This document shows, in pieces, positions 10,696 through 31,722 of a stretch of 32,000 nucleotides of DNA. The DNA comes from Gemmata obscuriglobus (GTDB taxonomy: Bacteria; Planctomycetota; Planctomycetia; Gemmatales; Gemmataceae), in NCBI RefSeq assembly GCF_008065095.1, contig NZ_CP042911.1, positions 5,370,001 to 5,402,000 on the forward strand, in the 5' to 3' direction. Positions within the stretch are counted from its first letter, which is position 1. Every line of letters begins with the position of its first letter. The position numbers were made by a program, and so were the translations under genes. A model generated the notes under the pieces. The model had not been told where the DNA came from and searched no databases. It worked only from the letters and a program-made list of their open reading frames with translations.

Positions 10696-10827
10696 GGCTG
10701 ATTAGCTCACGACTTACGGCGCGCCGGGCCGAACTGAAAGCGCGCACACTATTTGGGGCCGGCGCTGTTTGATAGCCGTTCGCCGCGAGACGTGGAAGGG
10801 CATTTTGGGCGGAGGTGCGGGCCGGGC

Positions 10828-12077
10828 CAGGGCCTTTCCTTATTTCACCTTGCTTACACGAGGGAACGTGGCTATGTGGGGCGCCTTCTCGCAGCCAGGA
10901 AGGTACCCATGTCTCCTTGCACCCTGGTCGATGCCCTGGCGGCGGTTCCCGATCCCCGCAGCAAGCACGGCCTTATCCACCCACTCGCCCCCTTCCTCGG
11001 ACTCGTCGCCCTCGCCATGCTCATGGGGCGCACCAGCCTCAATGGCATCGCTCGCTTCGGGCGACAGCACGGACCCGCCCTCGCCCATGCCCTCGGCTTC
11101 CGACGCGGCAAGACCCCGGCCGTTTCCACGCTCTCCCGCACCCTGCGACGCTTCGACGCCGACCAACTGGAGCACGTCCTCTCGTACTGGATCGCCAGCC
11201 GCGTCGACCCGGCCGCCTTCACACACATCTCCATCGACGGCAAGACCCTTCGAGGCTCTCGCAACGGCGCGATCCCCGGTCAGCACCTGCTGGCCGCATA
11301 CGCCCCCACCGTCGGTGCCGTACTCGCCCAGGTCAAGGTCGATGCGAGCACCAACGAGCACAAGGCCGCCTTGACGCTCCTCGGCATTCTGCCGCTGCGA
11401 GGGAAGGTCGTGGTCGGCGACGCCATGTTCTGCCAGCGAGACCTGGCCGAGGAGGTGGTCGGGGCCGGCGGCGACTACGTGCTCACGGTGAAGGACAACC
11501 AACCCGGATTGGGGATCGACATCCGAGCCGGGTTCGCCTTCGAGACCGCCGCCCGATCGATCGCGGCGGCCACTTCCCCCTGGGGATCGGCCTCCGCCCG
11601 CCCCGAGCCGCATCGCCACGACCGTCGATAAGGGTCACGGCCGCATCGAGAAGCGGACGCTGCAAACGACCTCGATTCTGACGTGCTCGCCGACGTGGGC
11701 GGGGGTGAAGCAGGGCTTCCAGTTGACGCGTGAGCGGACGGTCCGAGGCCAAACGACGGTCGAAGTGCATTTCGGCATCACGAGCCTGTCGGCCGAGAAG
11801 GCGGATGCGGCCACACTCCTGAACCATGTGCGGACGCACTGGCGCATCGAGAACGAACTGCATTACGTGCGTGACGTGACACTGGGCGAGGACGCGTGTC
11901 GTGTGCGCATGGGGCACGCACCACAGGTGCTGGCGGCGCTGCGGAACGCCGTGGTGCACCTGTGGCGTGAGGTCAAGGCGGTGAGTTGCCCGGAGGCGAT
12001 CGAGCGGCTCCAGATGGACCCGGCAATGGCCAAGGGACTTATCGGAGTTACGTAGAGTGAATCAAGGAAAGGCCCTG
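10828..12077 (+). mobile_element. ISAs1-family insertion sequence, copy 1 (1250 bp)
   Basis: Terminal inverted repeats CAGGGCCTTTCCTTATTTCA (10828-10847) and TGAATCAAGGAAAGGCCCTG (12058-12077) match at 18/20. An exact 10-bp direct repeat CGGGCCGGGC flanks the element (10818-10827 and 12078-12087). The CAGGG termini agree with my recollection of this family. Confidence 0.85.
10909..12055 (+). pseudogene. ISAs1-family (H-repeat-associated type) transposase, split over two frames
   Basis: N-terminal/DDE part 10909-11631: VPDPRSKHGLIHPL, SIDGKTLRGS, STNEHKAA, VVGDAMFCQRD, GGDYVLTVKDNQPG. The C-terminal part is in the +1 frame, open from 11492 to 12055: TVDKGHGRIEKRTLQTT, HWRIENELHYVRDVTLGEDACRVR. 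There is one frame break somewhere in 11492-11631. Confidence 0.8.
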
Positions 12078-24369: not shown

Positions 24370-25966
24370 CAGTGCTGTGCACAACTGAGTTCAGGGATCC
24401 TCGTTGGGCTTGTGGGCTTGTCGACGCCGTTGGACGGAGGTGTGTGCCCCCTTCTGTTTCGCGGCGTGCGGGTGGGCACGGGGCGCCTTGTTGCGTGTCT
24501 TGTCCCAGCCCGGCTTCCACATCGTGCCCAATAACTGATCCAACAACGTTCCCACACTCTCTGCCGTCTGATCCGTCGGGATCAGGGACACGATCATCGA
24601 CACCTCGACCAACTCCTTGAGCGCGGCCAACTGACGATGCCAGTCCGTGCAGAACTGCGCCGTCGAGAGGTCGTCGATGGTCACCTTCCGCTTCGCAACC
24701 ACATAGCCCTGGAGGACCTGCACCACGTTCGCGAGGACGAAACACATCGACGCCTGAAACACGGTCGCCTCCGGTGTCGAACCGATGAACCGACCCAGGG
24801 CGAAGATCGCCGTCACCTTTTGGAACGTGCCTTCGATGGTCCACCGGATGCGGTACAGGTCCAACAGATCGGTCGCCGGGTATGGGGCCGAATCGAGCAG
24901 GTCCGTGAGGATTGTAATCGCTTCGCCCACCGGGCGCGCGACGGTGATCCGCCGGACGTACCGGCGGAGCTTGTCCTTGGGCTTCCCGGCCCACCCCCAT
25001 TCTTCGACCACGGCTCGTTGGGATGGGTCCGCGGTCGTGACCGCGGGGCGCTTCGGGTCGGGTTCGAACGACAGGGTCCGCGCGTACCGCACCACGAAAT
25101 GACCATTGTCCTTGGTGAACTCGGCGAAGTGCTTCGACGCACAGAACAACCGATCCCCGACCACCAGTTTCGCCGGACCGCCTCGGGCGTGCACTCGGGG
25201 CATCAAATCGGGGATCAGTTTGGCCTCGTTGGTTTCGCCATCGAGATCGGCCGCCATGTCGAGCACCAACCCGTCACGGGGCCGGTACGCCACGAGCAGT
25301 TTTCCGCCCAAGAGCTTGCCCGGTGTGCCCCGCGTGTCGACGAGTCGCTTGGCCACCTTCTTGAGACTCTTGCCGTCGAGGATCAGAACCTCCAGGCGGT
25401 CGAAGGAGGTCGGAAGGCGGTGCGCGACGACCTCGGGGAACAGGGCGGTGAACCGGTCGGTGACGTCCCGCAGGAACGCTTCGCTCAGGCCCCGGGGGAT
25501 GCGCCGGAGCTTGCCGTAGAACGCTTCGTGGCACCCGTCGTCGGGTTGCCGGTGGCGTCGCAGGTGGGCCTGCCGCCCCGAGCCCTGGTGTTCGATGAGC
25601 GCATCGAAGATCCAGGTGACCAGTTGGGCGAAGGTCACGACGTCCTCATAGCCGCGTCCCCGATGTCGCTCGTAGAGGTCCGCGAGGACCGGGTCGGGAA
25701 CGCCATAGGCGAAGAGTGCGAGCGACGCGTGGGCCAGTGGCAGGCCCTCCAGGACCTGGCGCGCGAAGTCCGTGGGCGCGTGCGGTTGGGAGCGTGGGAC
25801 GCGCTGATGAGGTGGCAGAATCACGGTGACCTCCATGTCCCGGGTCGCGGACCCCGCACCACCCCGCGTCCCACGACCACTCGGTTAACCCCAATTTCGT
25901 CGCAGTGAAAACCCTAAATCAGCAATCCGCAATCAGTTATACAAATCCAAGATGTGCATAGCACTG
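24370..25966 (-). mobile_element. IS4-like insertion sequence (1597 bp) nested inside the ISKra4-like transposase gene
   Basis: The ends are CAGTGCTGTGCACA (24370-24383) and TGTGCATAGCACTG (25953-25966), a 13/14 inverted repeat. An exact 9-bp direct repeat GGGATATCC flanks the element (24361-24369 and 25967-25975). Confidence 0.8.
24391..25836 (-). CDS. DDE transposase, IS4-like family, apparently intact (481 aa)
   Basis: Candidate DDE residues in LILDGKSL, VVGDRLFC and the Y-x-x-R-x-x-x-E block YRIRWTIEGTFQK. The ORF nearly fills the element. Confidence 0.75.
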   Translation of the reverse strand: MEVTVILPPHQRVPRSQPHAPTDFARQVLEGLPLAHASLALFAYGVPDPVLADLYERHRGRGYEDVVTFAQLVTWIFDALIEHQGSGRQAHLRRHRQPDDGCHEAFYGKLRRIPRGLSEAFLRDVTDRFTALFPEVVAHRLPTSFDRLEVLILDGKSLKKVAKRLVDTRGTPGKLLGGKLLVAYRPRDGLVLDMAADLDGETNEAKLIPDLMPRVHARGGPAKLVVGDRLFCASKHFAEFTKDNGHFVVRYARTLSFEPDPKRPAVTTADPSQRAVVEEWGWAGKPKDKLRRYVRRITVARPVGEAITILTDLLDSAPYPATDLLDLYRIRWTIEGTFQKVTAIFALGRFIGSTPEATVFQASMCFVLANVVQVLQGYVVAKRKVTIDDLSTAQFCTDWHRQLAALKELVEVSMIVSLIPTDQTAESVGTLLDQLLGTMWKPGWDKTRNKAPRAHPHAAKQKGAHTSVQRRRQAHKPNEDP

Positions 25967-27024
25967 GGGATATCCGTCTTCCAGCAGCTTCGACTTGCCC
26001 CGGACAAACGCCGTCGCGGCTTGGCCCCCGGGACCGAACACCGCCTTCGCCCCGCTGGCGAGGTACTCCGCCCCATGCCAGAAGTCGAGGACCTGGGTCG
26101 CGTCACGGAAGTGCTGCTCGGACACGTTCCACAACCACTCGGCCCCATCCCCCAGTACCGTCATTTGGCTCGAATCGGTCCACTCCAGTCGCGTGGCCTC
26201 GTCGTGACACCGCTTCCCGAACAGGCTCGCCTCCTCCACGGCCGCGATCACCGACCGCGCCAACGGGGTTGGCAGGTCGCGTCCCTCCCAGTCCATCGCC
26301 GTGGTCGGCGCACTTCGCTCGCGCCGGGCAAAAACGGCCATCTTGAGATCCCGCCAACCGTCCTCCACAGTGTTGACCTTGCCCGCGTCGATGTGCAACT
26401 CGCTGTCCACCGGCCGCTCGGTCCTGGCCGCGGCTTGGGCTCGGGTGAAGACTTCAGCGGTCGAGCGGTGTTGCCGGGTGGCGGTGGCCTGGGCCGCCGT
26501 GGCGTGGCAGAGTTGCCGGATGGTGTTGTCGTCCAATTCCCAGCCGACCACCTCGGCCAGAGTCACTTCGGCTTTGGCGAAGGACTGTTGGACGCCCAGC
26601 AAGACGGCCATCCGACAGGCGCCCGGGGTGACGTAGCCGCTGAGGCCCAGCCCGCGATCGGCTCCGAACTCGCCTTGCCCGCAAGTGGGGCAGTGGAAAT
26701 ACCTCCGCTCCAGCTCAATCGGACCAACGGCGGTCACAACCGTTCGGGTGTGCGGTCCTTTGGAGCGCCCGGGGTGCGTCTTCGCGCAGGTGCGGGCGCG
26801 CCCCCTTTTTGCTCGTCCTTCTCGATCCGTGAACCCAAGGCGGCACCGAGTGTGGTCCGCAACAGTTTGCGCCCTTGATCGAGTGCATGCTTCTCGCAGG
26901 CGGCCAGGACCGTGCCGTCGGGAGCTTCTTGGGCCAGACGATTCAGGTCCGTGAAATAGCCCAGCAGTTGTTCCAAGGCCAACCGTTCGGATTCGGTACT
27001 GTATTCTATAGTCAGCGTCGGCAT
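25967..27024 (-). pseudogene. ISKra4-like transposase, N-terminal and central fragment, with an internal frame break
   Basis: ATG 27024 (MPTLTIEYSTESERLALEQLL...) is preceded by GGGAGGG. This frame stops at 26734. The -1 frame continues with TVVTAVGPIELERRYFHCPTCGQGEFGADRGLGL...LGDGAEWLWN...VLDFWHGAEYL...KLLEDGYP, up to the nested insertion. Confidence 0.7.
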
Positions 27025-27430: not shown

Positions 27431-30106
27431 TCATCCTTTCAGGCGCGTCAGCGCCTCCTTCGCCTCCCAGTATTTCGGGTGCTCCTCAAACGCGGTCACC
27501 GCGTTGTAGAACTTCGCGGCGTTCGCCGGGTCGCCCAGCGCCTCGTAGCACCTGGCGATGTTGAACAGCGTGTCGGCCCCGCTCTTGTGGTACTCCTTGT
27601 AGTCCGAGTACGCTTTCAGCGCAAGATCCGGTCGACCCAACTCCTCCAGGTACAACTGTCCGAGAAGCCGGGTCGCATTGTACCACGCCTCCTCTTCGTC
27701 GCCGGACCCTTTCGCGGTCTCGCGCACATCTTCCAGGAGTTGCACCCCGCCGTCGCGGTTGCCCACCCGGAGCAGGCAGCGGGCCTCGACCAGCCGCACC
27801 CGGTTGCTGGTCGGCTCGATCACCTTGGCGAGCCGGGTCAGGTGCGTGGCCCAGTCGAGCAGGTCGGCGTCGGCCTCGGCCCGGTTCAGCACCGCCATCG
27901 CCTTCTTTACGCAGTACGCAACATCGAACCACTTCCCCACCCGCTCGCGCGCCGCGGTCAGTTGCTCCACCGTGACCGAGTAGTAGTACGAGTCCTTCTT
28001 GCGCAGCAGGTCGGCGTCGAGGCTGCTGTACGCAAGGGCCGCTTCGACGTTCACCACGGCGTTGAGCGTGTGGTTCGGCACGCCGCGCATCTTGCCGTAC
28101 AGCTCCGCGATCTTGCGGTAGGCTTCGAGAACGGCCCCGCCGCCGTCGTCGCGATAGAGCTGCAGGTCGGCGACCGCCGATTCGTAATACGGGCGTGCTT
28201 CGGCGTCTTTCGCTTCGCGGGCCGCGCGGTCGCCCGCGGCTTCGGCTGCGTCCGCCTGGCCCTTGATCGCGTCGCCCTCGGCTTCCGCGGTTGAGGCGAG
28301 CCGCCGCAGGGCGTTCAGGTATATCTCCCGCTGCTCTTTCGCGAGGTTACGCGGGCCGAACGTGCGGGCGCTGATCTTGATCTGTTCGAGGCACCCTCTG
28401 GCGCTCGTGGCGTCGCCGTACTTCTCGGCCACATCGGACAACTTCTTGAAGATCCCCGGCGCGCGGTCCGGGAGCCCACGGCCCGCCATCCGGAGGTACC
28501 CCAGCCCGCGCTCGCGACGTTCCGGGTCGTTGTCGTCGGCGAGCTGGTAGCCGAGTTGCTCGACGTACTCGTAGCTGAAATCCGCCGGCGCCCCGGCGGT
28601 CGCGACGGCCGCGACGAACTCGCCCTCTTGAAGCTCCGCGTACAAGACGGTGCGGTACTCCTTCGCCTTATCGTTACCGGGGTCCGCTTTGAGCTTGCGC
28701 TCGACGGCCCCGATCGCCTCCATGCGGCGGCCGGGTTTGTTCAGCTCGCGCCACCCCAGTCGGTCCGAGAGGCCCTTCGGGCCGTCGATCGCGAGGGACC
28801 AGGCGTCGAACAGCAGCGGGCCGCGCACGGCGGGGTGGTACCCCGGGGTTTCGGGGCTCAGCAGCCGTGCCAGTGTTTCCGCCGCGGCGTCGTACTGCTT
28901 CGAGTGGACGAACGCGATCGCCCGCAGGTACTCGACCCGCGCGAGGTACACCGGCTTCTTCTGCTCGACGAGTTCGAGGAACCGCCCCGCCTCCTCGCGC
29001 CCGGCGGGGGTCGGCGGGGTCATCAGTAGCGCGGTCGCGCGGTCCAGGCAGAGTTTGAAGTCGAGATCGGCGATGAGGTCGGGGTAACGCTCAAGCGTGA
29101 CGAGGTTAATACCGTTGTGAAGCTGACGCATACCTTCGCTCGCCAGCTCGCTGTTCGGGTTCAGTTCGAGCGCGCGCCGGAAGAACTTGAGCGCCAGCCC
29201 GAGTTGCCCGTGGTGCATGTAGCTGAACCCGCGGAGGACGTGCTTGAACACCCGCAGCCCCGGGAGAATGCGGATCGCGTACACCCCGTACAGGGTGACC
29301 GGCAGCAGGAACGGAGCCGCCCCGCTCACCCCCGGCAGCCCCGTGGCGAAACCGAGCAGGTGCAGCGCCACCCCAAGGCCCGCGCAGATGGTCATGATCT
29401 CCACTTCGGACTCTTCCGCCTCCCCACTGAACGTGAGCAGGTAGAAGAAGGGCAACCCGAGCAGCAAGTAGATGCCGAGGTTCTGGCGCGCCTCGGGGCT
29501 GGCGAAGAACGAGACCAACTTGTCCGGGTCTGCGGGGTCGTTGGCCGACACCTTGATGTCGAGGAGGTACGTCGAGGCGATGTACACCAGCAGCGCCGCT
29601 GCGCCGGCACCAGCCGCCAGGCGCCACATCCCGTCTTCGATCTGGCGCATCCGGTACAAGCCGAACCCCAGGACCGCGCCGCCGACCGCGCAGAACCCGA
29701 GCCAATCGCCGACGGGCGGGTTGTGCTTGATCTCGGCCCAGCTCAAGCCGAACAGCTCCGCGAGCGGCTGCGCCCACGGTTGCGCGAAGTCGCGCCCCGA
29801 GAGCACGCCCGCGGTCAGCCCGATCATAATGCCCGAGTAGATGAACACCGGGCTCTCGAGCAGCACCAGAAGCGGAAACGCCTTCCAGTTGTCCCACGGC
29901 TTCACGCCGCGCCGCATCAGCCGGCCGGTGCCCAGCGCGAGTCCCACGGCGAGGCCGGTGCCGACCCACCCGAGCACCCACGCGATGTCCCGCCAGGCTT
30001 CGGCAGGGCTGGTGGGCACTTGGAGCGCGAAAAAGATCCAGAGACCGAAGAACAGGCCCTTGAGGACGTACTCGTTGCGGTGCCAAGGGGTCATGATCGG
30101 TTTCAC
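27431..30106 (-). CDS. Large membrane-anchored TPR-repeat protein
   Basis: The N-terminal ~290 aa have multiple hydrophobic helices (GLFFGLWIFFALQV, LGWVGTGLAVGLALG, LLVLLESPVFIYSGIMIGLTAGVL, FCAVGGAVLGFGLY, AAALLVYIASTYLL, IYLLLGLPFFYLLTF, ICAGLGVALHLLGF, FLLPVTLYGVYAI). The remaining ~600 aa are TPR-like helical repeats (LALKFFRRALELNPN..., ARCYEALGDPANAAKFYNAVTAFEEHPKYWEAKEAL). The start is GTG 30106 or ATG 30094. Confidence 0.8.
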   Translation of the reverse strand: MKPIMTPWHRNEYVLKGLFFGLWIFFALQVPTSPAEAWRDIAWVLGWVGTGLAVGLALGTGRLMRRGVKPWDNWKAFPLLVLLESPVFIYSGIMIGLTAGVLSGRDFAQPWAQPLAELFGLSWAEIKHNPPVGDWLGFCAVGGAVLGFGLYRMRQIEDGMWRLAAGAGAAALLVYIASTYLLDIKVSANDPADPDKLVSFFASPEARQNLGIYLLLGLPFFYLLTFSGEAEESEVEIMTICAGLGVALHLLGFATGLPGVSGAAPFLLPVTLYGVYAIRILPGLRVFKHVLRGFSYMHHGQLGLALKFFRRALELNPNSELASEGMRQLHNGINLVTLERYPDLIADLDFKLCLDRATALLMTPPTPAGREEAGRFLELVEQKKPVYLARVEYLRAIAFVHSKQYDAAAETLARLLSPETPGYHPAVRGPLLFDAWSLAIDGPKGLSDRLGWRELNKPGRRMEAIGAVERKLKADPGNDKAKEYRTVLYAELQEGEFVAAVATAGAPADFSYEYVEQLGYQLADDNDPERRERGLGYLRMAGRGLPDRAPGIFKKLSDVAEKYGDATSARGCLEQIKISARTFGPRNLAKEQREIYLNALRRLASTAEAEGDAIKGQADAAEAAGDRAAREAKDAEARPYYESAVADLQLYRDDGGGAVLEAYRKIAELYGKMRGVPNHTLNAVVNVEAALAYSSLDADLLRKKDSYYYSVTVEQLTAARERVGKWFDVAYCVKKAMAVLNRAEADADLLDWATHLTRLAKVIEPTSNRVRLVEARCLLRVGNRDGGVQLLEDVRETAKGSGDEEEAWYNATRLLGQLYLEELGRPDLALKAYSDYKEYHKSGADTLFNIARCYEALGDPANAAKFYNAVTAFEEHPKYWEAKEALTRLKG

Positions 30107-30360
30107 CCGGAGCAGATGGGGTGTGGTCCCGCCGGGTCGCCGGAAGGTCGGCGCGGGGCCACCTGATGACGGTCACTCCCGCGCTCGCGCGCCCGGAAGG
30201 TCGGGGCGGCCCGCGGGACCGGTAGGGAATGTCGAACGGTGTCACCATATCGCGCCCCGAGCGGTGGTGGTAGGGGTGGGGCCGGCGCAACGCGAATTGG
30301 TGCTTGACTCTGCTGCGCCGCGGCCCTAGACTCGTCCCGACTTTCCCGACGGGAACCCTC

Positions 30361-30888
30361 GTGCGCCTGCGCTCCCCCACCCTGCGGTTCGTGCTGACGG
30401 CCCTGGCCCTTTTGGGCCAGGTGGCGCCGTCGGTCGCGCACCCATTGGCAGCGCAGTTGCGGACCGGTGGCGCTGGCGGGTGCGCGGCCGGGTCGTGCGC
30501 CTGCGGTGCGGTCGAGAAGGCCCTTTCAGGGTGCTGCTGTTCCAAAGCACTCCCGCCAGTGCCGGCGGCCAAACGTTGCGGGGAGGCCGCCCCGAAGGTC
30601 AAGAAGTCCTCGTGTTGCGCATCAGCAAAAGACGAATCACCCCGCCCCACCGTCAAACCAGCCGCACGAGAACCGCTCCGCATCACCGCCGGCAACAACT
30701 GCCGTTGCGAGAAGCCAGCGAAAGCCGCCACGAGCGAGCCAACCGCACCGCCCCCGAGCGGCGTGATCGTGGTACTCTCGCTCGCCCCCGTTGTGCAAGC
30801 GGCGCGGTGGTCCGCCACGCCCACCGCCGTTCTCCACGCACCGCCCTTCCCTCCCCCGCGGTGCCCGACACTCCCGCCGAACCGGTGA
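30361..30888 (+). CDS. Cys-rich exported/membrane hypothetical protein
   Basis: GTG 30361: VRLRSPTLRFVLTALALLGQVAPSVAHP signal-like leader. About a dozen Cys residues occur in clusters (CAAGSCACG, GCCCSK, SSCCAS, NCRCEK), with a hydrophobic segment GVIVVLSLAPVV near the C-terminus. GC3 is high in this frame, while the overlapping 598-aa minus-strand ORF is R/P/G-rich junk. The start is uncertain (TTG 30304 in the track). Confidence 0.45.
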   Translation: MRLRSPTLRFVLTALALLGQVAPSVAHPLAAQLRTGGAGGCAAGSCACGAVEKALSGCCCSKALPPVPAAKRCGEAAPKVKKSSCCASAKDESPRPTVKPAAREPLRITAGNNCRCEKPAKAATSEPTAPPPSGVIVVLSLAPVVQAARWSATPTAVLHAPPFPPPRCPTLPPNR

Positions 30889-30949
30889 CGCCGCTCCCGC
30901 ACGGAGCGCTCTCGCTGTTCGCGCGGGTTCCCGTGAATACCACACGAAC

Positions 30950-31122
30950 GGCTCGCGTCTCAACCGGCGAGAGGCCGATGTTCACGGCCACCGACGTTGC
31001 GAACGGATCGCGAGAGGTGATTCTGTGAGAGGAACCCCACACTCTCGGTGATTGGAAACGATCCGACCGGGCGCCGCGACGGCGGTCCAGTCGGCGGCAG
31101 GTTCGATCCCTGCCGCGAGCCA
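30950..31122 (+). ncRNA. tRNA-like structured RNA candidate (four tRNA-type arms plus a ~105-nt insertion at the variable-arm position)
   Basis: Canonical T-arm GCAGG-TTCGATC-CCTGC (31097-31113). An 8-bp perfect acceptor-like pairing joins GGCTCGCG (30950-30957) and CGCGAGCC (31114-31121). The D-like arm is TCTC-AACCGGC-GAGA (30958-30972). The anticodon-like arm is GGCCG-ATGTTCA-CGGCC (30973-30989). It is not a canonical tRNA. Confidence 0.3.
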
Positions 31123-31154
31123 CTGGCTACCCTGAAAATGAAGTTTGTCCGCAT

Positions 31155-31188
31155 CTCGGCTCGGACCCCGAGCGGGGTCCGAGCCGAG
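31155..31188 (+). other. Perfect 15-bp GC-rich stem-loop (tetraloop GAGC)
   Basis: CTCGGCTCGGACCCC-GAGC-GGGGTCCGAGCCGAG. It lies 33 nt after the tRNA-like element and 109 nt before the cytochrome start codon. It is followed by AGCGTTTG, a poor T-tract. Confidence 0.6.
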
Positions 31189-31296
31189 AGCGTTTGCCCC
31201 GTGGGGCGCACCCACGGGAGCCAATACACTCCGCCGATCGGCCCGGGTGACGGTCGCCCGAACCGGTCGGCGGCCGTGTCTGTCAGGAGTGTTTCA

Positions 31297-31722
31297 ATGC
31301 AGAAGCTGATTCGGGCGAGCCTGTTCGCCGCCCTCGGCGCGGCAGCGGTCCTGTTCGCGTTCGGGAGCGTCACCGCGGCCCCGGCCGACGACAAACTGCC
31401 GGAAATCGCGGAGATTATGAAGAAGGGGCACGCCAAGACGGACGGTTACATCACCAAGGTCAAGGAAGCGGTCAAGGGCGGCAAGTGGGAGGACGCCCAG
31501 AAGTACGCCAAGGACATGAACATCTTGGGCGCCGCGATCGGCAAGAACAAGCCGCCGAAGGGCGACGACAAGTCGTGGAAGGCCCTGACCGACAAGTATG
31601 CCGATACGACCCAAAAGATCCTGAAGGGGACCGAAGACAAAGACGCTAAGGCCACTAACGCGGCCATCAGCACGATCAGCATGTCGTGCGGCGGGTGCCA
31701 CAGCAAGCACAAACCGAAATAA
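31297..31722 (+). CDS. Class II cytochrome c (cytochrome c-prime / c556-like four-helix-bundle type)
   Basis: ATG 31297 is preceded by CAGGAG 8 nt upstream. The signal peptide is MQKLIRASLFAALGAAAVLFAFGSVTAAPA. The mature part of ~115 aa is Lys/Ala-rich and helical, with a single CxxCH heme motif (CGGCHSKH) six residues from the C-terminus. That placement is the hallmark of class II c-type cytochromes. Confidence 0.75.
   Translation: MQKLIRASLFAALGAAAVLFAFGSVTAAPADDKLPEIAEIMKKGHAKTDGYITKVKEAVKGGKWEDAQKYAKDMNILGAAIGKNKPPKGDDKSWKALTDKYADTTQKILKGTEDKDAKATNAAISTISMSCGGCHSKHKPK

What the first reader, a model, noticed from the sequence alone, without database searches (positions are those of the whole stretch)
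30950..31122. tRNA-like fold with all four arms but a ~105-nt structured insertion where the variable arm belongs
This lies in the 408-nt intergenic gap between the Cys-rich ORF and the cytochrome gene. 31097-31113 is a textbook T-arm (GCAGG / TTCGATC / CCTGC). The next 8 nt (CGCGAGCC, 31114-31121) are perfectly complementary to GGCTCGCG at 30950-30957. Directly after that 5' strand come two hairpins. The first has a 4-bp stem and a 7-nt loop containing GG (TCTC-AACCGGC-GAGA), which is D-arm-like. The second has a 5-bp stem and a 7-nt loop (GGCCG-ATGTTCA-CGGCC), which is anticodon-arm-like. That loop has T at position 2 and GTT in the anticodon slot, but C rather than a purine at position 37. 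Between this arm and the T-arm are about 105 nt, at the topological position of a class II variable arm. They are closed by CCGAC (30991-30995) / GTCGG (31090-31094). They contain further helices: CGGATCG 31004-31010 with CGATCCG 31059-31065, and CGAGAG-GTG 31011-31019 with CAC-A-CTCTCG 31038-31047. GAGAGG and GGTGATT motifs also recur. No normal-length tRNA can be folded onto the T-arm, because no acceptable 5' acceptor strand lies 70-95 nt upstream. There are also no linker nucleotides at positions 8/9 and 26 if the 8-bp acceptor is used. I know of no bacterial RNA class with this layout. Possibilities include a tRNA-derived regulatory or decoy RNA, a tRNA gene disrupted by an inserted element, or a tRNA-3'-end remnant of an old integration site that pairs by chance.
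Basis: partly seen in the sequence, partly recalled or inferred. Interest (0 to 1): 0.7.

Follow-up and report, generated by a model that had tools for sequence, protein, structure and literature searches.

The report
New tRNA-like small RNA in Gemmata
This is a real, conserved gene for a roughly 173-nt RNA in Gemmata and close relatives, with the acceptor, D and T arms of a tRNA but a long helical rod with a conserved tip in place of the anticodon arm; it matches no described RNA family and its function is unknown.

Summary
The tRNA-like features at 30950-31122 (+) are real and far beyond chance. The window is Gemmata obscuriglobus. Full-length homologues (141-204 bits with a covariance model) occur in 6 other Gemmataceae genomes and 14 metagenome or SRA contigs, always at the same locus. 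Covariation is strong: 95.5% of cells paired against 37-51% in slid controls, 16 pairs with double changes, 0/500 shuffles.

An 8-bp acceptor, a 4-bp D-stem with a canonical D-loop (AACCGGC), a 5-bp T-stem with UUCGAUY and A73 are all supported. There is no anticodon arm and no variable arm. A roughly 115-nt rod sits in the anticodon-arm position. It ends in a junction with a near-invariant loop (AUUCUGUGAGAGGAACCC) and a GNRA hairpin.

ARAGORN and Rfam 15 do not recognise it. It fails the defining features of tRNA, tRNA-Sec, tmRNA and YrlA.

It looks like an independent gene, with a -10-like box at -12..-7, a downstream hairpin and no encoded CCA (as in neighbouring true tRNA genes). It is present only where an adjacent, unnamed Cys-rich exported protein gene is present, and it has decayed where that gene was lost.

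My best guess is a tRNA-derived scaffold that stabilises and presents a conserved effector loop. The function is unproven.

The parts
30933..30943 (+). Conserved upstream box GTGAATAC-CAC. It contains a putative -10 hexamer TACCAC (TATCCC in most homologues) at -12..-7 relative to G1, preceded by a conserved GTGAA.
   Evidence: GTGAATA is invariant in all 17 upstream flanks, while the sequence further upstream is only partly conserved. It resembles the -10 boxes inferred for the two neighbouring genes: TAGACT/TATCCT upstream of the Cys-rich ORF (with TAGACT also) and TACACT/TACAGT/TATAGT upstream of cytochrome c'. The promoter role is inferred, not shown.
30950..30957 (+). Acceptor stem, 5' strand (GGCUCGCG), pairing with 31114-31121.
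   Evidence: 8 pairs, 94.5% of cells paired, 3 pairs with compensatory double changes. G8-C is invariant. Position 5 is C-G, or C.A in 6 sequences. The structure-blind MAFFT plus RNAalifold run gives the same helix.
30958..30972 (+). D-arm: 4-bp stem UCUC/GAGA and 7-nt loop AACCGGC, which reads as A14 R15 Y16 Y17 G18 G19 N. It is followed by an invariant unpaired G (30973) at the position of nucleotide 26.
   Evidence: Nearly invariant: 15 of 17 homologues are identical, with a 1-nt insertion in L004 and one substitution in L067. Because it barely varies, covariation says nothing for or against the stem. The loop matches the canonical tRNA D-loop pattern (established tRNA knowledge).
30974..30979 (+). 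Base helix of the long arm (GCCGAU), pairing with GUCGGC at 31090-31095. It occupies the position of the anticodon stem.
Evidence: 6 pairs, 100% of cells paired, with U-G, C-G and U-A alternation at pair 27:152.
30980..30985 (+). Asymmetric internal loop, 5' side (6-8 nt, variable sequence). The 3' side is the conserved dinucleotide CA at 31088-31089.
   Evidence: Alignment and separate MFE folds of each homologue.
30986..31010 (+). Rod, 5' strand, pairing with 31064-31087. About 20 base pairs with a few mismatches. The sequence varies but the length is kept.
   Evidence: Helices 4 and 5 pair in 90.2% and 86.5% of cells, and 9 pairs have double changes. MFE folds of most of the 16 distinct homologues, each folded alone, give a near-continuous rod. 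Total RNA length is 172-176 nt in 17 sequences.
31011..31047 (+). Hairpin A: stem CGAGAGGUG/CAC-A-CUCUCG closing the near-invariant 18-nt loop AUUCUGUGAGAGGAACCC (31020-31037). It may contain an inner 4-bp stem UUCU/GGAA.
   Evidence: The stem pairs in 97.2% of cells and has compensatory changes (A-U to G-C). The loop is identical in 18 of 19 homologues. One homologue found without reference to the RNA sequence (L086) has AUUCAUUAAGAGGAACCC. The inner stem never varies, so it is untested.
31050..31063 (+). Hairpin B: 5-bp stem GAUUG/CGAUC closing a GNRA tetraloop (GAAA here; mostly GCAA, GGAA, GUAA or GAGA elsewhere).
   Evidence: 98.8% of cells paired. Pair 107:114 is C-G (6), U-A (5) or U-G (5). 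The loop keeps the GNRA pattern in most homologues. In L087 an extra hairpin of about 45 nt with a GCAA loop is inserted next to it.
31064..31095 (+). Rod 3' strand, the conserved CA bulge and the base-helix 3' strand (GUCGGC). A single linker nucleotide follows (31096; G, C or A).
31097..31113 (+). T-arm: 5-bp stem GCAGG/CCUGC and loop UUCGAUC (canonical U54 U55 C56 R57 A58 N59 Y60, with G53-C61).
   Evidence: 98.8% of cells paired. Pair 51:63 is G-C in 14 sequences and A-U in 2. The loop is UUCGAUY in every full-length homologue.
31114..31122 (+). Acceptor 3' strand CGCGAGCC plus an invariant discriminator-position A (31122). No CCA is encoded; the next bases are CUG.
   Evidence: Conservation stops at the A plus CU. 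Three true tRNA genes in related loci also lack an encoded CCA and continue with CTC or CCT.
31155..31188 (+). 15-bp GC-rich hairpin 33 nt downstream of the RNA, followed by AGCGUUUGCC. Probably a transcription terminator.
   Evidence: Read from the sequence. A hairpin at 20-60 nt downstream is visible in most homologous loci, although the sequences are unrelated. The simple terminator scan did not call it because the T-run is short. The role is inferred.
30361..30888 (+). Co-inherited upstream gene: a Cys-rich, Pro-rich protein (175 aa from GTG 30361) with an N-terminal hydrophobic segment that looks like a signal peptide. It has its own sigma-70-type promoter, TTGACT-17-TAGACT, at 30304-30332.
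   Evidence: Conserved motifs in all RNA-bearing loci with enough flank: LALLGQLTPAVALP, SCAC, GCCCSKPE, SCC, KCxCDKP, AEPAVP and a C-terminal PPPxPPPRA. There are 14 representatives in 1.84 billion proteins and no Pfam or NCBIfam family.

Best explanation
30950-31122 (+) is an independent gene for a stable small RNA of about 173 nt that derives from, or mimics, a tRNA. It belongs to a previously undescribed family restricted to Gemmata and close Gemmataceae.

Shown:
- The RNA folds into an 8-bp acceptor stem, a D-arm and a T-arm with the canonical loop nucleotides that make the tRNA elbow (G18 G19 with U55 C56), and an A at the discriminator position.
- The anticodon arm is replaced by a helical rod of fixed length, about 26 bp.
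- The rod ends in a three-way junction carrying a nearly invariant 18-nt loop and a GNRA hairpin.
- It has no anticodon and cannot decode.

Inferred:
- Transcription starts at or within a few nt of G1, from a -10-like box at -12..-7, and ends at a downstream hairpin.
- The 3' trailer is removed at the discriminator and CCA is added, as for the CCA-less true tRNA genes of these organisms.
- The tRNA-like core serves as a maturation and stability handle recognised by tRNA enzymes. This is the natural counterpart of the engineered 'tRNA scaffold', in which a foreign RNA replaces the anticodon arm.
- The near-invariant distal loop, held at a fixed distance from the core, is the part that binds a still unknown protein or RNA partner.
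- Its strict co-inheritance with the adjacent Cys-rich exported protein gene suggests the two act in the same pathway.
For: Homologues:
- Found through the flanking TPR protein (7 full-length RNAs including the window among the 64 loci and the window, 161-204 bits).
- Found through a 20-mer of the loop in metagenomes (12 of 15 loci, 141-189 bits).
- Found through relatives of the Cys-rich protein (L086 at 156 bits, L087 at 76 bits).

Structure:
- 95.5% of 895 cells are paired, against 37-51% when partners are slid. 16 pairs have double changes and 0/500 shuffles reach the observed values.
- A structure-blind alignment gives the same acceptor, D, base, A, B and T helices, with 15 compensatory pairs.
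- Each homologue folded alone gives the same architecture in most cases. Lengths are 172-176 nt.
- z = -2.9 for the window sequence.

Strand:
- The opposite strand scores about 16-18 bits, against 161-204.
- There are many G-U pairs, and the D- and T-loop sequences are canonical only on the + strand.

tRNA-gene-like anatomy:
- A73 is followed by CUG or CUC, with no CCA, as in the true tRNA genes of related loci.
- There is a conserved box at -17..-7 and downstream hairpins.

Scaffold precedent: an acceptor, T and D core with an insert replacing the anticodon arm is processed and stable in vivo (PMC3753655).

Coupling to the Cys-rich ORF:
- Every RNA-bearing locus with enough flank has the ORF, and none of about 20 TPR-plus-cytochrome loci that lack the ORF has the RNA.
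- L015 has two separate deletions, about 480 nt of the ORF and 111 nt of the rod. L016 keeps only the 5' part of the RNA and has no ORF.
Against: - There are no expression data. The transcript, its ends, CCA addition and stability are all inferred.
- The -10-like box lacks a T at its last position in most homologues, and no -35 element is conserved. Co-transcription with the upstream ORF, followed by processing, is therefore not excluded.
- No partner is known. Duplex searches of the loop against the neighbouring mRNAs gave no conserved target.
- More distant relatives of the Cys-rich protein (L080, L082, L083-L085) have no such RNA, so the protein family does not need it in general.
- Co-loss could partly reflect physical linkage.
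- Twelve of the homologues were retrieved with the loop 20-mer, which inflates its apparent invariance. Among the 9 retrieved independently of the RNA sequence, 8 have the identical loop.
- The core lacks the 8/9 linkers and a normal variable loop, so a true L-shape is plausible but unproven.
Confidence: 0.5

Rival explanations
1. An aminoacylated tRNA mimic. After CCA addition the RNA is charged by a synthetase that does not read the anticodon. It then acts on the ribosome (tmRNA-like) or as a dedicated aminoacyl donor or handle for a tRNA-dependent enzyme, possibly in biogenesis of the adjacent Cys-rich exported protein.
For: - It has an open acceptor stem with a free discriminator-position A73 in all homologues, and a gene end like those of true CCA-less tRNA genes.
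- The elbow nucleotides are canonical.
- The 13-bp acceptor-plus-T stack (8/5) is the geometry of bacterial tRNA-Sec, which is handled by dedicated factors. The rod-less natural variant gives its best, though weak, Rfam hit to tRNA-Sec (22.4 bits, E 0.013).
- It is co-inherited with a Cys-rich protein gene.
Against: - No G3-U70: position 3:70 is C-G or U-A. No long variable arm and no G-1, so the well-known anticodon-independent identity sets for Ala, Ser and His are absent.
- No conserved reading frame. The only short frame is broken by 1-nt indels in L014, L075 and L068.
- No tRNA-dependent transferase or synthetase paralogue was found among the window's large ORFs.
- The 22.4-bit tRNA-Sec hit is far below the gathering score of 47.
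Confidence: 0.12
2. A processing or punctuation element. The RNA is co-transcribed with the upstream Cys-rich ORF. The tRNA-like fold recruits RNase P and RNase Z to cut the transcript, which defines the mRNA 3' end (as mascRNA does for MALAT1). The released RNA is a by-product or has a secondary role.
For: - It lies on the same strand 40-90 nt downstream of the ORF stop in all loci.
- There is no convincing -35 for the RNA.
- The two are strictly co-inherited.
- M. smegmatis YrlA shows that a tRNA-like fold with a 7-bp acceptor-like stem is cut by RNase P in bacteria (PMC4201824).
Against: - A cleavage signal would not need a fixed-length rod, a near-invariant distal loop and a GNRA hairpin, which are the most conserved parts.
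- A small hairpin followed by a conserved -10-like box lies between the ORF and the RNA. The same hairpin-then-box arrangement lies between the RNA and the cytochrome gene.
- Distant relatives of the ORF lack the element.
Confidence: 0.15
3. A cis-regulatory leader (riboswitch-like or protein-binding) of the downstream cytochrome c' gene. The hairpin at 31155-31188 would be its expression platform.
For: - The arrangement is structured RNA, then hairpin, then gene, on one strand in all loci.
- In G. obscuriglobus the hairpin's 5' arm contains GGCUCG, which could pair with the acceptor 3' strand.
Against: - About 20 related loci have the cytochrome gene next to the TPR gene without the RNA.
- The possible alternative pairing is not conserved in the other homologues I inspected (L028, L013).
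- A conserved -10-like box (TACACT at 31225-31230) and a conserved TGACGGTC box (31248-31255) lie between the hairpin and the gene, which suggests a separate promoter.
- An open acceptor stem ending in a discriminator-like A is not a riboswitch feature.
Confidence: 0.08
4. Not a functional RNA: a decaying tRNA gene with an insertion, or a tRNA 3' fragment left at an old integration site that pairs by chance.
For: - ARAGORN and Rfam find no tRNA here.
- There are transposase genes elsewhere in the window.
- Some lineages (L015, L016) do show decay.
Against: - The full-length structure is kept in 19 homologues, with compensatory changes in the acceptor, rod, hairpin A, hairpin B and T stems.
- Length is conserved at 172-176 nt.
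- The 'insert' contains the most conserved nucleotides.
- The flanking non-coding DNA is not alignable between the same genomes.
Confidence: 0.02

Closest known systems
tmRNA (SsrA), tRNA-like domain plus helix P2
   Same: Open acceptor stem with a discriminator-position A, a canonical T-arm, and a long helix leaving the tRNA-like core where the anticodon arm would be. It is a stand-alone gene followed by a hairpin.
   Different: - No G3-U70 alanine identity pair: position 3:70 is C-G or U-A.
- It has a true D-stem, an 8-bp acceptor and half the length of a tmRNA.
- No conserved tag reading frame, and no pseudoknots were detected.
- It is not found by ARAGORN's tmRNA search or by the Rfam tmRNA models.
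- It is absent from many Gemmataceae, so it cannot be the essential tmRNA.
Bacterial Y RNAs of the YrlA type (PMC4201824)
   Same: A non-coding RNA that combines a tRNA-like module (D-arm, T-arm and acceptor-like stem with tRNA tertiary nucleotides) with a second, functional module. M. smegmatis YrlA is even cut by RNase P and receives CCA.
   Different: - The topology is the other way round. [quoted passage not shown] Here the ends form the acceptor stem and the second module replaces the anticodon arm.
- I found no GNCGAAN0-1G motif in the RNA sequence (read by eye).
- No TROVE or Ro60 gene was found among the window's large ORFs.
Engineered tRNA scaffold for recombinant RNA (PMC3753655)
   Same: The architecture is exactly the same: acceptor stem, T-arm and D-arm are kept and an unrelated structured RNA is inserted in place of the anticodon stem-loop. 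In E. coli this gives correct processing and protection from nucleases.
   Different: The scaffold is artificial. Here the arrangement is natural, conserved and under selection. Whether it works the same way in Gemmata is inferred. This core also has an 8-bp acceptor and no 8/9 linkers.
Bacterial tRNA-Sec and other 8/5 or 9/4 tRNAs (Rfam RF01852)
   Same: A 13-bp acceptor-plus-T coaxial stack (8 + 5). The rod-less natural variant (L015) gives its best Rfam hit to tRNA-Sec.
   Different: - No anticodon loop and no UCA.
- D-stem of 4 bp with a 7-nt loop, instead of 6 bp with a 4-nt loop.
- A73 instead of G73, and no linker nucleotides.
- The score of 22.4 bits is far below the gathering score of 47, and the full RNA gives no hit at all.
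mascRNA/MALAT1 and viral 3' tRNA-like structures
   Same: tRNA mimics that recruit tRNA-processing enzymes without decoding.
   Different: Those are eukaryotic or viral elements at the 3' ends of long RNAs. None has a long rod with a conserved distal junction, and there is no sequence or model similarity.

Membership tests
Canonical tRNA (Rfam RF00005; ARAGORN) | Recognised by tRNA gene finders or the tRNA covariance model | tested here: not met
   ARAGORN finds 0 genes in the window. It also finds none with introns allowed at default thresholds; only junk calls on both strands appear at 70-80% thresholds, and a synthetic rod-less construct is not called at default thresholds either. Rfam gives no tRNA hit at E<=10.
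Canonical tRNA (Rfam RF00005; ARAGORN) | 5-bp anticodon stem with a 7-nt loop, U33 and a conserved anticodon | tested here: not met
   The candidate hairpin pairs in 87.5% of cells, against 100% for the competing base helix that uses the same strand. Its loop is 7-9 nt and varies in sequence.
Canonical tRNA (Rfam RF00005; ARAGORN) | 7-bp acceptor, two linker nucleotides (8, 9) and a 4-5-nt or long variable region | tested here: not met
   The acceptor is 8 bp with an invariant G8-C pair. There is no linker before the D-stem and one nucleotide before the T-stem.
Canonical tRNA (Rfam RF00005; ARAGORN) | Elbow nucleotides: D-loop A14 R15 .. G18 G19; T-loop U54 U55 C56 R57 A58; G53-C61 | tested here: met
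   The D-loop is AACCGGC and the T-loop is UUCGAUY, with a G-C closing pair, in all full-length homologues.
tRNA-Sec (Rfam RF01852) | 13-bp acceptor-plus-T stack (8/5 in bacteria) | tested here: met
   8 + 5 pairs. The alternative 7 + 6 arrangement fails in the sequences that have C at the linker position.
tRNA-Sec (Rfam RF01852) | UCA anticodon, 6-bp D-stem with 4-nt loop, G73, and a score above the gathering threshold | tested here: not met
   No anticodon loop, a 4-bp D-stem with a 7-nt loop, and A73. The full RNA gives no hit. The rod-less L015 remnant scores 22.4 bits against a gathering score of 47.
tmRNA | G3-U70 pair (alanine identity) | tested here: not met
   Pair 3:70 is C-G in 14 and U-A in 2 of 16 distinct sequences.
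tmRNA | Internal tag-peptide reading frame with a resume codon and a stop | tested here: not met
   The only short frame (GUG AGA GGA ... UGA in hairpin A) is broken by 1-nt deletions in L014, L075 and L068. The variable positions covary as a helix instead.
tmRNA | Detected by ARAGORN's tmRNA search or by the Rfam tmRNA families, including permuted forms | tested here: not met
   There is only a 10.7-bit local T-arm match to the permuted-tmRNA model, in L015.
YrlA / bacterial Y RNA | [quoted passage not shown] | tested here: not met
   Features as described in PMC4201824. Here the ends form the acceptor stem, the order is D then T, and I found no such motif when reading the RNA sequence by eye.
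YrlA / bacterial Y RNA | Encoded within a few kb of an rsr (Ro60/TROVE) gene | tested here: not met
   Pfam scans of the large ORFs of the 32-kb window show no TROVE, RtcB or related genes. The rest of the genome could not be searched.
Riboswitch / cis-acting 5' leader of the downstream gene | Present upstream of the regulated gene across species, with conserved alternative pairing to an expression platform | tested here: not met
   About 20 loci have the cytochrome c' gene without the RNA. The possible anti-terminator pairing seen in G. obscuriglobus is not conserved in the homologues inspected.
Integration-site (att) tRNA fragment | Only the 3' part of a tRNA is kept; the remainder is unconstrained | tested here: not met
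   Both acceptor strands and all internal helices are conserved and covary.

The most novel reading that the evidence does not exclude
This is a third kind of bacterial tRNA mimic, after tmRNA and YrlA. It would be an anticodon-less, CCA-tailed RNA with a tRNA-Sec-like 13-bp acceptor/T stack that is charged, or is at least bound by tRNA-handling factors. Its fixed-length rod would place a conserved effector loop at a defined distance from the acceptor end. It would act as a dedicated adaptor in the biogenesis or control of the co-inherited Cys-rich exported protein. Examples would be an aminoacyl or peptidyl carrier for a tRNA-dependent modification, or a ribosome-directed regulator.
Probability: 0.1. 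Interest if true: 0.9.

Novelty: new variant of a known kind. Interest (0 to 1): 0.66.

Why it matters
Bacteria are known to have very few non-decoding tRNA mimics, essentially tmRNA and the YrlA-type Y RNAs, and each has revealed a new piece of RNA biology. This locus adds a well-supported new family with a different architecture: an open acceptor stem and elbow, with the anticodon arm replaced by a length-conserved rod carrying a near-invariant loop.

It is found in Gemmata obscuriglobus. It looks like a natural version of the engineered tRNA scaffold. It is genetically tied to an uncharacterised family of Cys-rich exported proteins next to a cytochrome c'. That gives concrete experiments: transcript ends, CCA addition and charging, pull-down of partners, and deletion. 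It also gives a covariance model that could be used to annotate Planctomycetota genomes.

If it turns out only to be a stable scaffolded small RNA with a local regulatory role, the interest is moderate. If it is charged or acts on the ribosome, the interest is high.

Tried and rejected
1. Known families. Rfam 15 at gathering thresholds on the whole window and at E<=10 on 30700-31400 gave nothing on the RNA. The only hits were weak matches to the downstream hairpin, for example PreQ1-III on the minus strand at 25 bits against a gathering score of 63.
2. ARAGORN with introns and relaxed thresholds gave only junk.
4. A small ORF or tmRNA-like tag in hairpin A is ruled out, because the frame is broken by indels and the variable positions covary as a helix.
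5. Shine-Dalgarno mimicry by GAGAGGUGAU. The variable positions of this stretch covary with the opposite strand (GAGGGGUG/CACCCCCC, GAGGUGUG/CACGCACUC), so the constraint is the helix, not pairing to 16S rRNA.
6. Sarcin-ricin-loop or GNRA-like reading of UGAGAGGA in the conserved loop. This is contradicted by the L086 variant UUAAGAGGA.
7. A hammerhead-type three-way junction. The junction strands are only 0-2 nt.
8. Base-pairing targets of the conserved loop in the flanking mRNAs. RNAduplex gives about -18 to -27 kcal/mol everywhere in this GC-rich DNA, with no conserved site.
9. An anti-terminator pairing between the acceptor 3' strand and the downstream hairpin. This was seen only in G. obscuriglobus among the homologues inspected.
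10. A viral origin. The loop 20-mer is absent from viral contigs.
11. Literature searches for a described Gemmata or Planctomycetes tRNA-like RNA found nothing relevant.
12. A word-indexed protein search for the Cys-rich ORF found nothing. The full HMMER search found a small family.
13. TGAATAY and TGACGGTC are not enriched in the window by count.
Full report
**Source and observation**

The window comes from Gemmata obscuriglobus. The 891-aa TPR protein on the minus strand at 27431-30106 is 100% identical to C1280_10610 of that species.
- the T-arm at 31097-31113;
- the 8-nt complement 30950-30957/31114-31121;
- the D-like hairpin at 30958-30972;
- the helix 31011-31019/31038-31047.

ARAGORN finds no tRNA or tmRNA in the window. 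Rfam 15 finds nothing at gathering thresholds. At E<=10 nothing lies on the RNA itself; the only hits are weak matches to the downstream hairpin. The 173-nt segment folds with z = -2.9 on either strand, so folding energy alone does not decide anything.

**Homologues**

I aligned 33 relatives of the TPR protein and used the alignment to fetch 64 Gemmataceae loci. nhmmer found full-length matches to the 173-nt segment in six of them. A covariance model built from these seven sequences scored them at 161-204 bits. The opposite strand scored only about 16-18 bits.

An exact search of metagenome contigs for 20 nt of the most conserved loop returned 15 loci. Twelve of them carry a full-length RNA at 141-189 bits. 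The other three are one unrelated AT-rich sequence.

Two further homologues were reached through relatives of the neighbouring protein, so they are independent of the RNA sequence. L086 scores 156 bits and L087 scores 76 bits. Together these make 19 different homologues.

**Structure**

On the 17-sequence model alignment (16 distinct rows), 95.5% of 895 cells form standard pairs, against 37-51% when the 3' partners are slid by 1-3 columns. Sixteen pairs show changes on both sides, and 0 of 500 column shuffles reach the observed values. A structure-blind MAFFT alignment with RNAalifold recovers the same acceptor, D, base, hairpin A, hairpin B and T helices, with 15 compensatory pairs. Most of the 16 distinct sequences, each folded alone, give the same architecture.

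The supported structure is:
- An 8-bp acceptor. G8-C is invariant. A 7+6 split with the T-stem fails in sequences that have C at the linker.
- No linker, then a 4-bp D-stem with loop AACCGGC, which reads as A14 R15 Y16 Y17 G18 G19.
- An invariant G at position 26.
- A 6-bp base helix, 30974-30979/31090-31095, paired in 100% of cells.
- An asymmetric internal loop.
- A rod of about 20 bp whose sequence varies but whose pairing and length are kept. Total length is 172-176 nt.
- A three-way junction with hairpin A and hairpin B. Hairpin A has a 9-bp stem and the loop AUUCUGUGAGAGGAACCC. Hairpin B has 5 bp and a GNRA loop, and its pair 107:114 alternates between C-G, U-A and U-G.
- One linker nucleotide.
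- A 5-bp T-stem with loop UUCGAUY.
- The acceptor 3' strand and an invariant A at the discriminator position.

The supposed anticodon loop varies in sequence and length.

So the RNA has the acceptor, D and T arms of a tRNA and a long arm in place of the anticodon arm. There is no anticodon, and the variable region is a single nucleotide.

**Gene anatomy**

Conservation begins with a box, GTGAATA(Y), that ends 9 nt before G1. This places a TAnnnC/T hexamer at -12..-7. The upstream ORF has a clear TTGACT-17-TAGACT promoter that is conserved in all loci. The cytochrome gene has a conserved TACACT/TACAGT/TATAGT box. These suggest that such boxes are -10 elements in this clade.

Downstream, conservation stops after the discriminator A plus CU. 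No CCA is encoded. In most loci an unrelated GC-rich hairpin follows within 20-60 nt (31155-31188 in the window). Three true tRNA genes in related loci likewise lack CCA and continue with CTC or CCT. Two of the three (L037, L062) have -10-like boxes a few nt further upstream.

I therefore read the element as an independently transcribed, tRNA-gene-like unit. This is an inference, because no expression data were available.

**Context**

In every locus with enough flank the order is: TPR gene (divergent), Cys-rich ORF, RNA, hairpin, cytochrome c'-like gene.

The Cys-rich ORF (30361-30888) is a real gene.
- Its homologues share an N-terminal hydrophobic segment that looks like a signal peptide, several Cys motifs and a C-terminal PPPxPPPRA.
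- It has no Pfam or NCBIfam family.
- A full HMMER search of 1.84 billion representatives finds 14 relatives.

The RNA is present only where this ORF is present. About 20 loci in which the TPR and cytochrome genes are adjacent, but the ORF is missing, have no RNA. Two loci show parallel decay:
- L015 has two separate deletions relative to its relative L014. One removes about 480 nt of the ORF. The other removes 111 nt of the RNA, exactly the rod, between GTCGGC direct repeats. This leaves a 56-nt acceptor/D/T remnant with an altered T-loop.
- L016 keeps only the upstream box and the 5' third of the RNA.

More distant relatives of the ORF, in other genomic contexts, have no RNA. The window's other large ORFs encode nothing related to tRNA or Ro biology.

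**What it is not**

- It fails the defining features of a decoding tRNA: no anticodon arm, no 8/9 linkers, and not detected.
- It fails those of tRNA-Sec. It shares only the 8/5 geometry. The rod-less L015 remnant scores 22.4 bits against a gathering score of 47.
- It fails those of tmRNA. Pair 3:70 is C-G or U-A, there is no conserved frame, and it is not detected.
- It fails those of YrlA. The topology is opposite, there is no Ro60-binding motif, and no rsr gene lies nearby.
- A pseudogene or att remnant is excluded by the covariation.
- A riboswitch for the cytochrome gene is unlikely, because many orthologous cytochrome genes lack it and no alternative pairing is conserved.

**How it most likely works**

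Shown: this is a conserved, structured, + strand RNA with a tRNA-like core and a conserved distal module held at a fixed distance from it.

Inferred:
- The core is handled by tRNA enzymes (3' trimming at the discriminator, CCA addition, elbow modifications) and gives the RNA defined ends and stability. The engineered tRNA scaffold does exactly this when an RNA replaces the anticodon arm (PMC3753655).
- The near-invariant loop is the effector that binds an unknown partner.
- Co-inheritance links the function to the Cys-rich exported protein.

I give this about 0.5. The rivals are RNase P/Z-mediated punctuation of the ORF transcript (0.15), an aminoacylated mimic acting with the ribosome or a tRNA-dependent enzyme (0.12), a cis leader of the cytochrome gene (0.08), and a non-functional remnant (0.02).

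**Limits**

- All homologues lie at one syntenic locus. I could not scan whole genomes with the model, so extra copies or distant relatives may exist.
- Twelve homologues were retrieved with the loop 20-mer, which biases the apparent invariance of the loop. Of the nine retrieved independently of the RNA sequence, eight have the identical loop and one differs at three positions.
- The D-stem and the inner stem of hairpin A never vary, so covariation does not test them.
- The promoter, terminator, processing and partner are all inferred.

**Novelty**

No Rfam 15 family matches. Full-text searches for a tRNA-like or structured RNA of Gemmata or Planctomycetes found nothing relevant. It is a new family within the small class of bacterial tRNA mimics, with an architecture not described for tmRNA or Y RNAs.

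Noticed in passing
window 30304-30888 (+): A conserved protein with no Pfam or NCBIfam family (175 aa from GTG 30361). It has an N-terminal hydrophobic segment that looks like a signal peptide, Cys clusters (SCAC, CCCSK, SCC, CxCEK/CxCDK) and a proline-rich C-terminus (PPPxPPPRA in homologues). It has a textbook TTGACT-17-TAGACT promoter at 30304-30332. The word-indexed 5.8-billion protein search did not find it, but a full HMMER search found 14 relatives. Relatives in L080 and L086 lie near cytochrome c-thioredoxin/AhpC fusion proteins.
   Followed up: partly
L015 5475-5530 (-), compared with L014 3616-3790 (-): A natural rod-less variant of the RNA. A 111-nt deletion between GTCGGC direct repeats leaves a 56-nt acceptor/D/T remnant with T-loop UUCGGUU. 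Most of the Cys-rich ORF is deleted separately in the same locus.
   Followed up: yes
L016 5412-5560 (-): Only the upstream GTGAATA box, the 5' acceptor strand and the D-arm of the RNA remain. The rest has diverged and no Cys-rich ORF is detectable.
   Followed up: partly
L087 1606-1827 (+): A homologue with an extra hairpin of about 45 nt (GCAA tetraloop) inserted between hairpins A and B, which makes a four-way junction. It has a G.G mismatch at acceptor pair 4. This shows that the junction tolerates insertions.
   Followed up: partly
L065 10519-10538, L070 6268-6287, L071 3522-3541: The same 20-mer, GATTCTGTGAGAGGAACCCC, occurs in an unrelated AT-rich contig (one organism, three samples). 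There is no tRNA-like RNA around it and no Rfam hit. It may be chance at this database size, or an independent use of the motif.
   Followed up: partly
window 31225-31255 (+) and 30167-30174 (+): A conserved TACACT (-10-like) box followed by TGACGGTC(A), a near-palindromic box, lies upstream of the cytochrome c' gene in most loci. The same octamer also occurs in the TPR/Cys-ORF divergent intergenic region. It may be a shared operator. It is not enriched in the window by count (3 found, 2 expected).
   Followed up: partly
window 31129-31242 (-): A weak Rfam match to the PreQ1-III riboswitch (25.4 bits against a gathering score of 63, E 0.0077) on the minus strand. It is driven by the GC-rich hairpins downstream of the RNA and is judged to be a chance match.
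   Followed up: no
window 10753-11631 (+), 24391-25836 (-), 25937-26737 (-): Two DDE transposase genes and a UPF0236-like fragment. Mobile elements are present in the window, but they are 4 kb or more from the RNA and are not part of the conserved locus.
   Followed up: no
L018 5705-5778 (-), L037 9499-9572 (+), L062 10295-10366 (+): True tRNA genes (Thr, Val, Gly) of related Gemmataceae do not encode CCA. Their trailers start with CCT or CTC, like the trailer of the tRNA-like RNA.
   Followed up: yes
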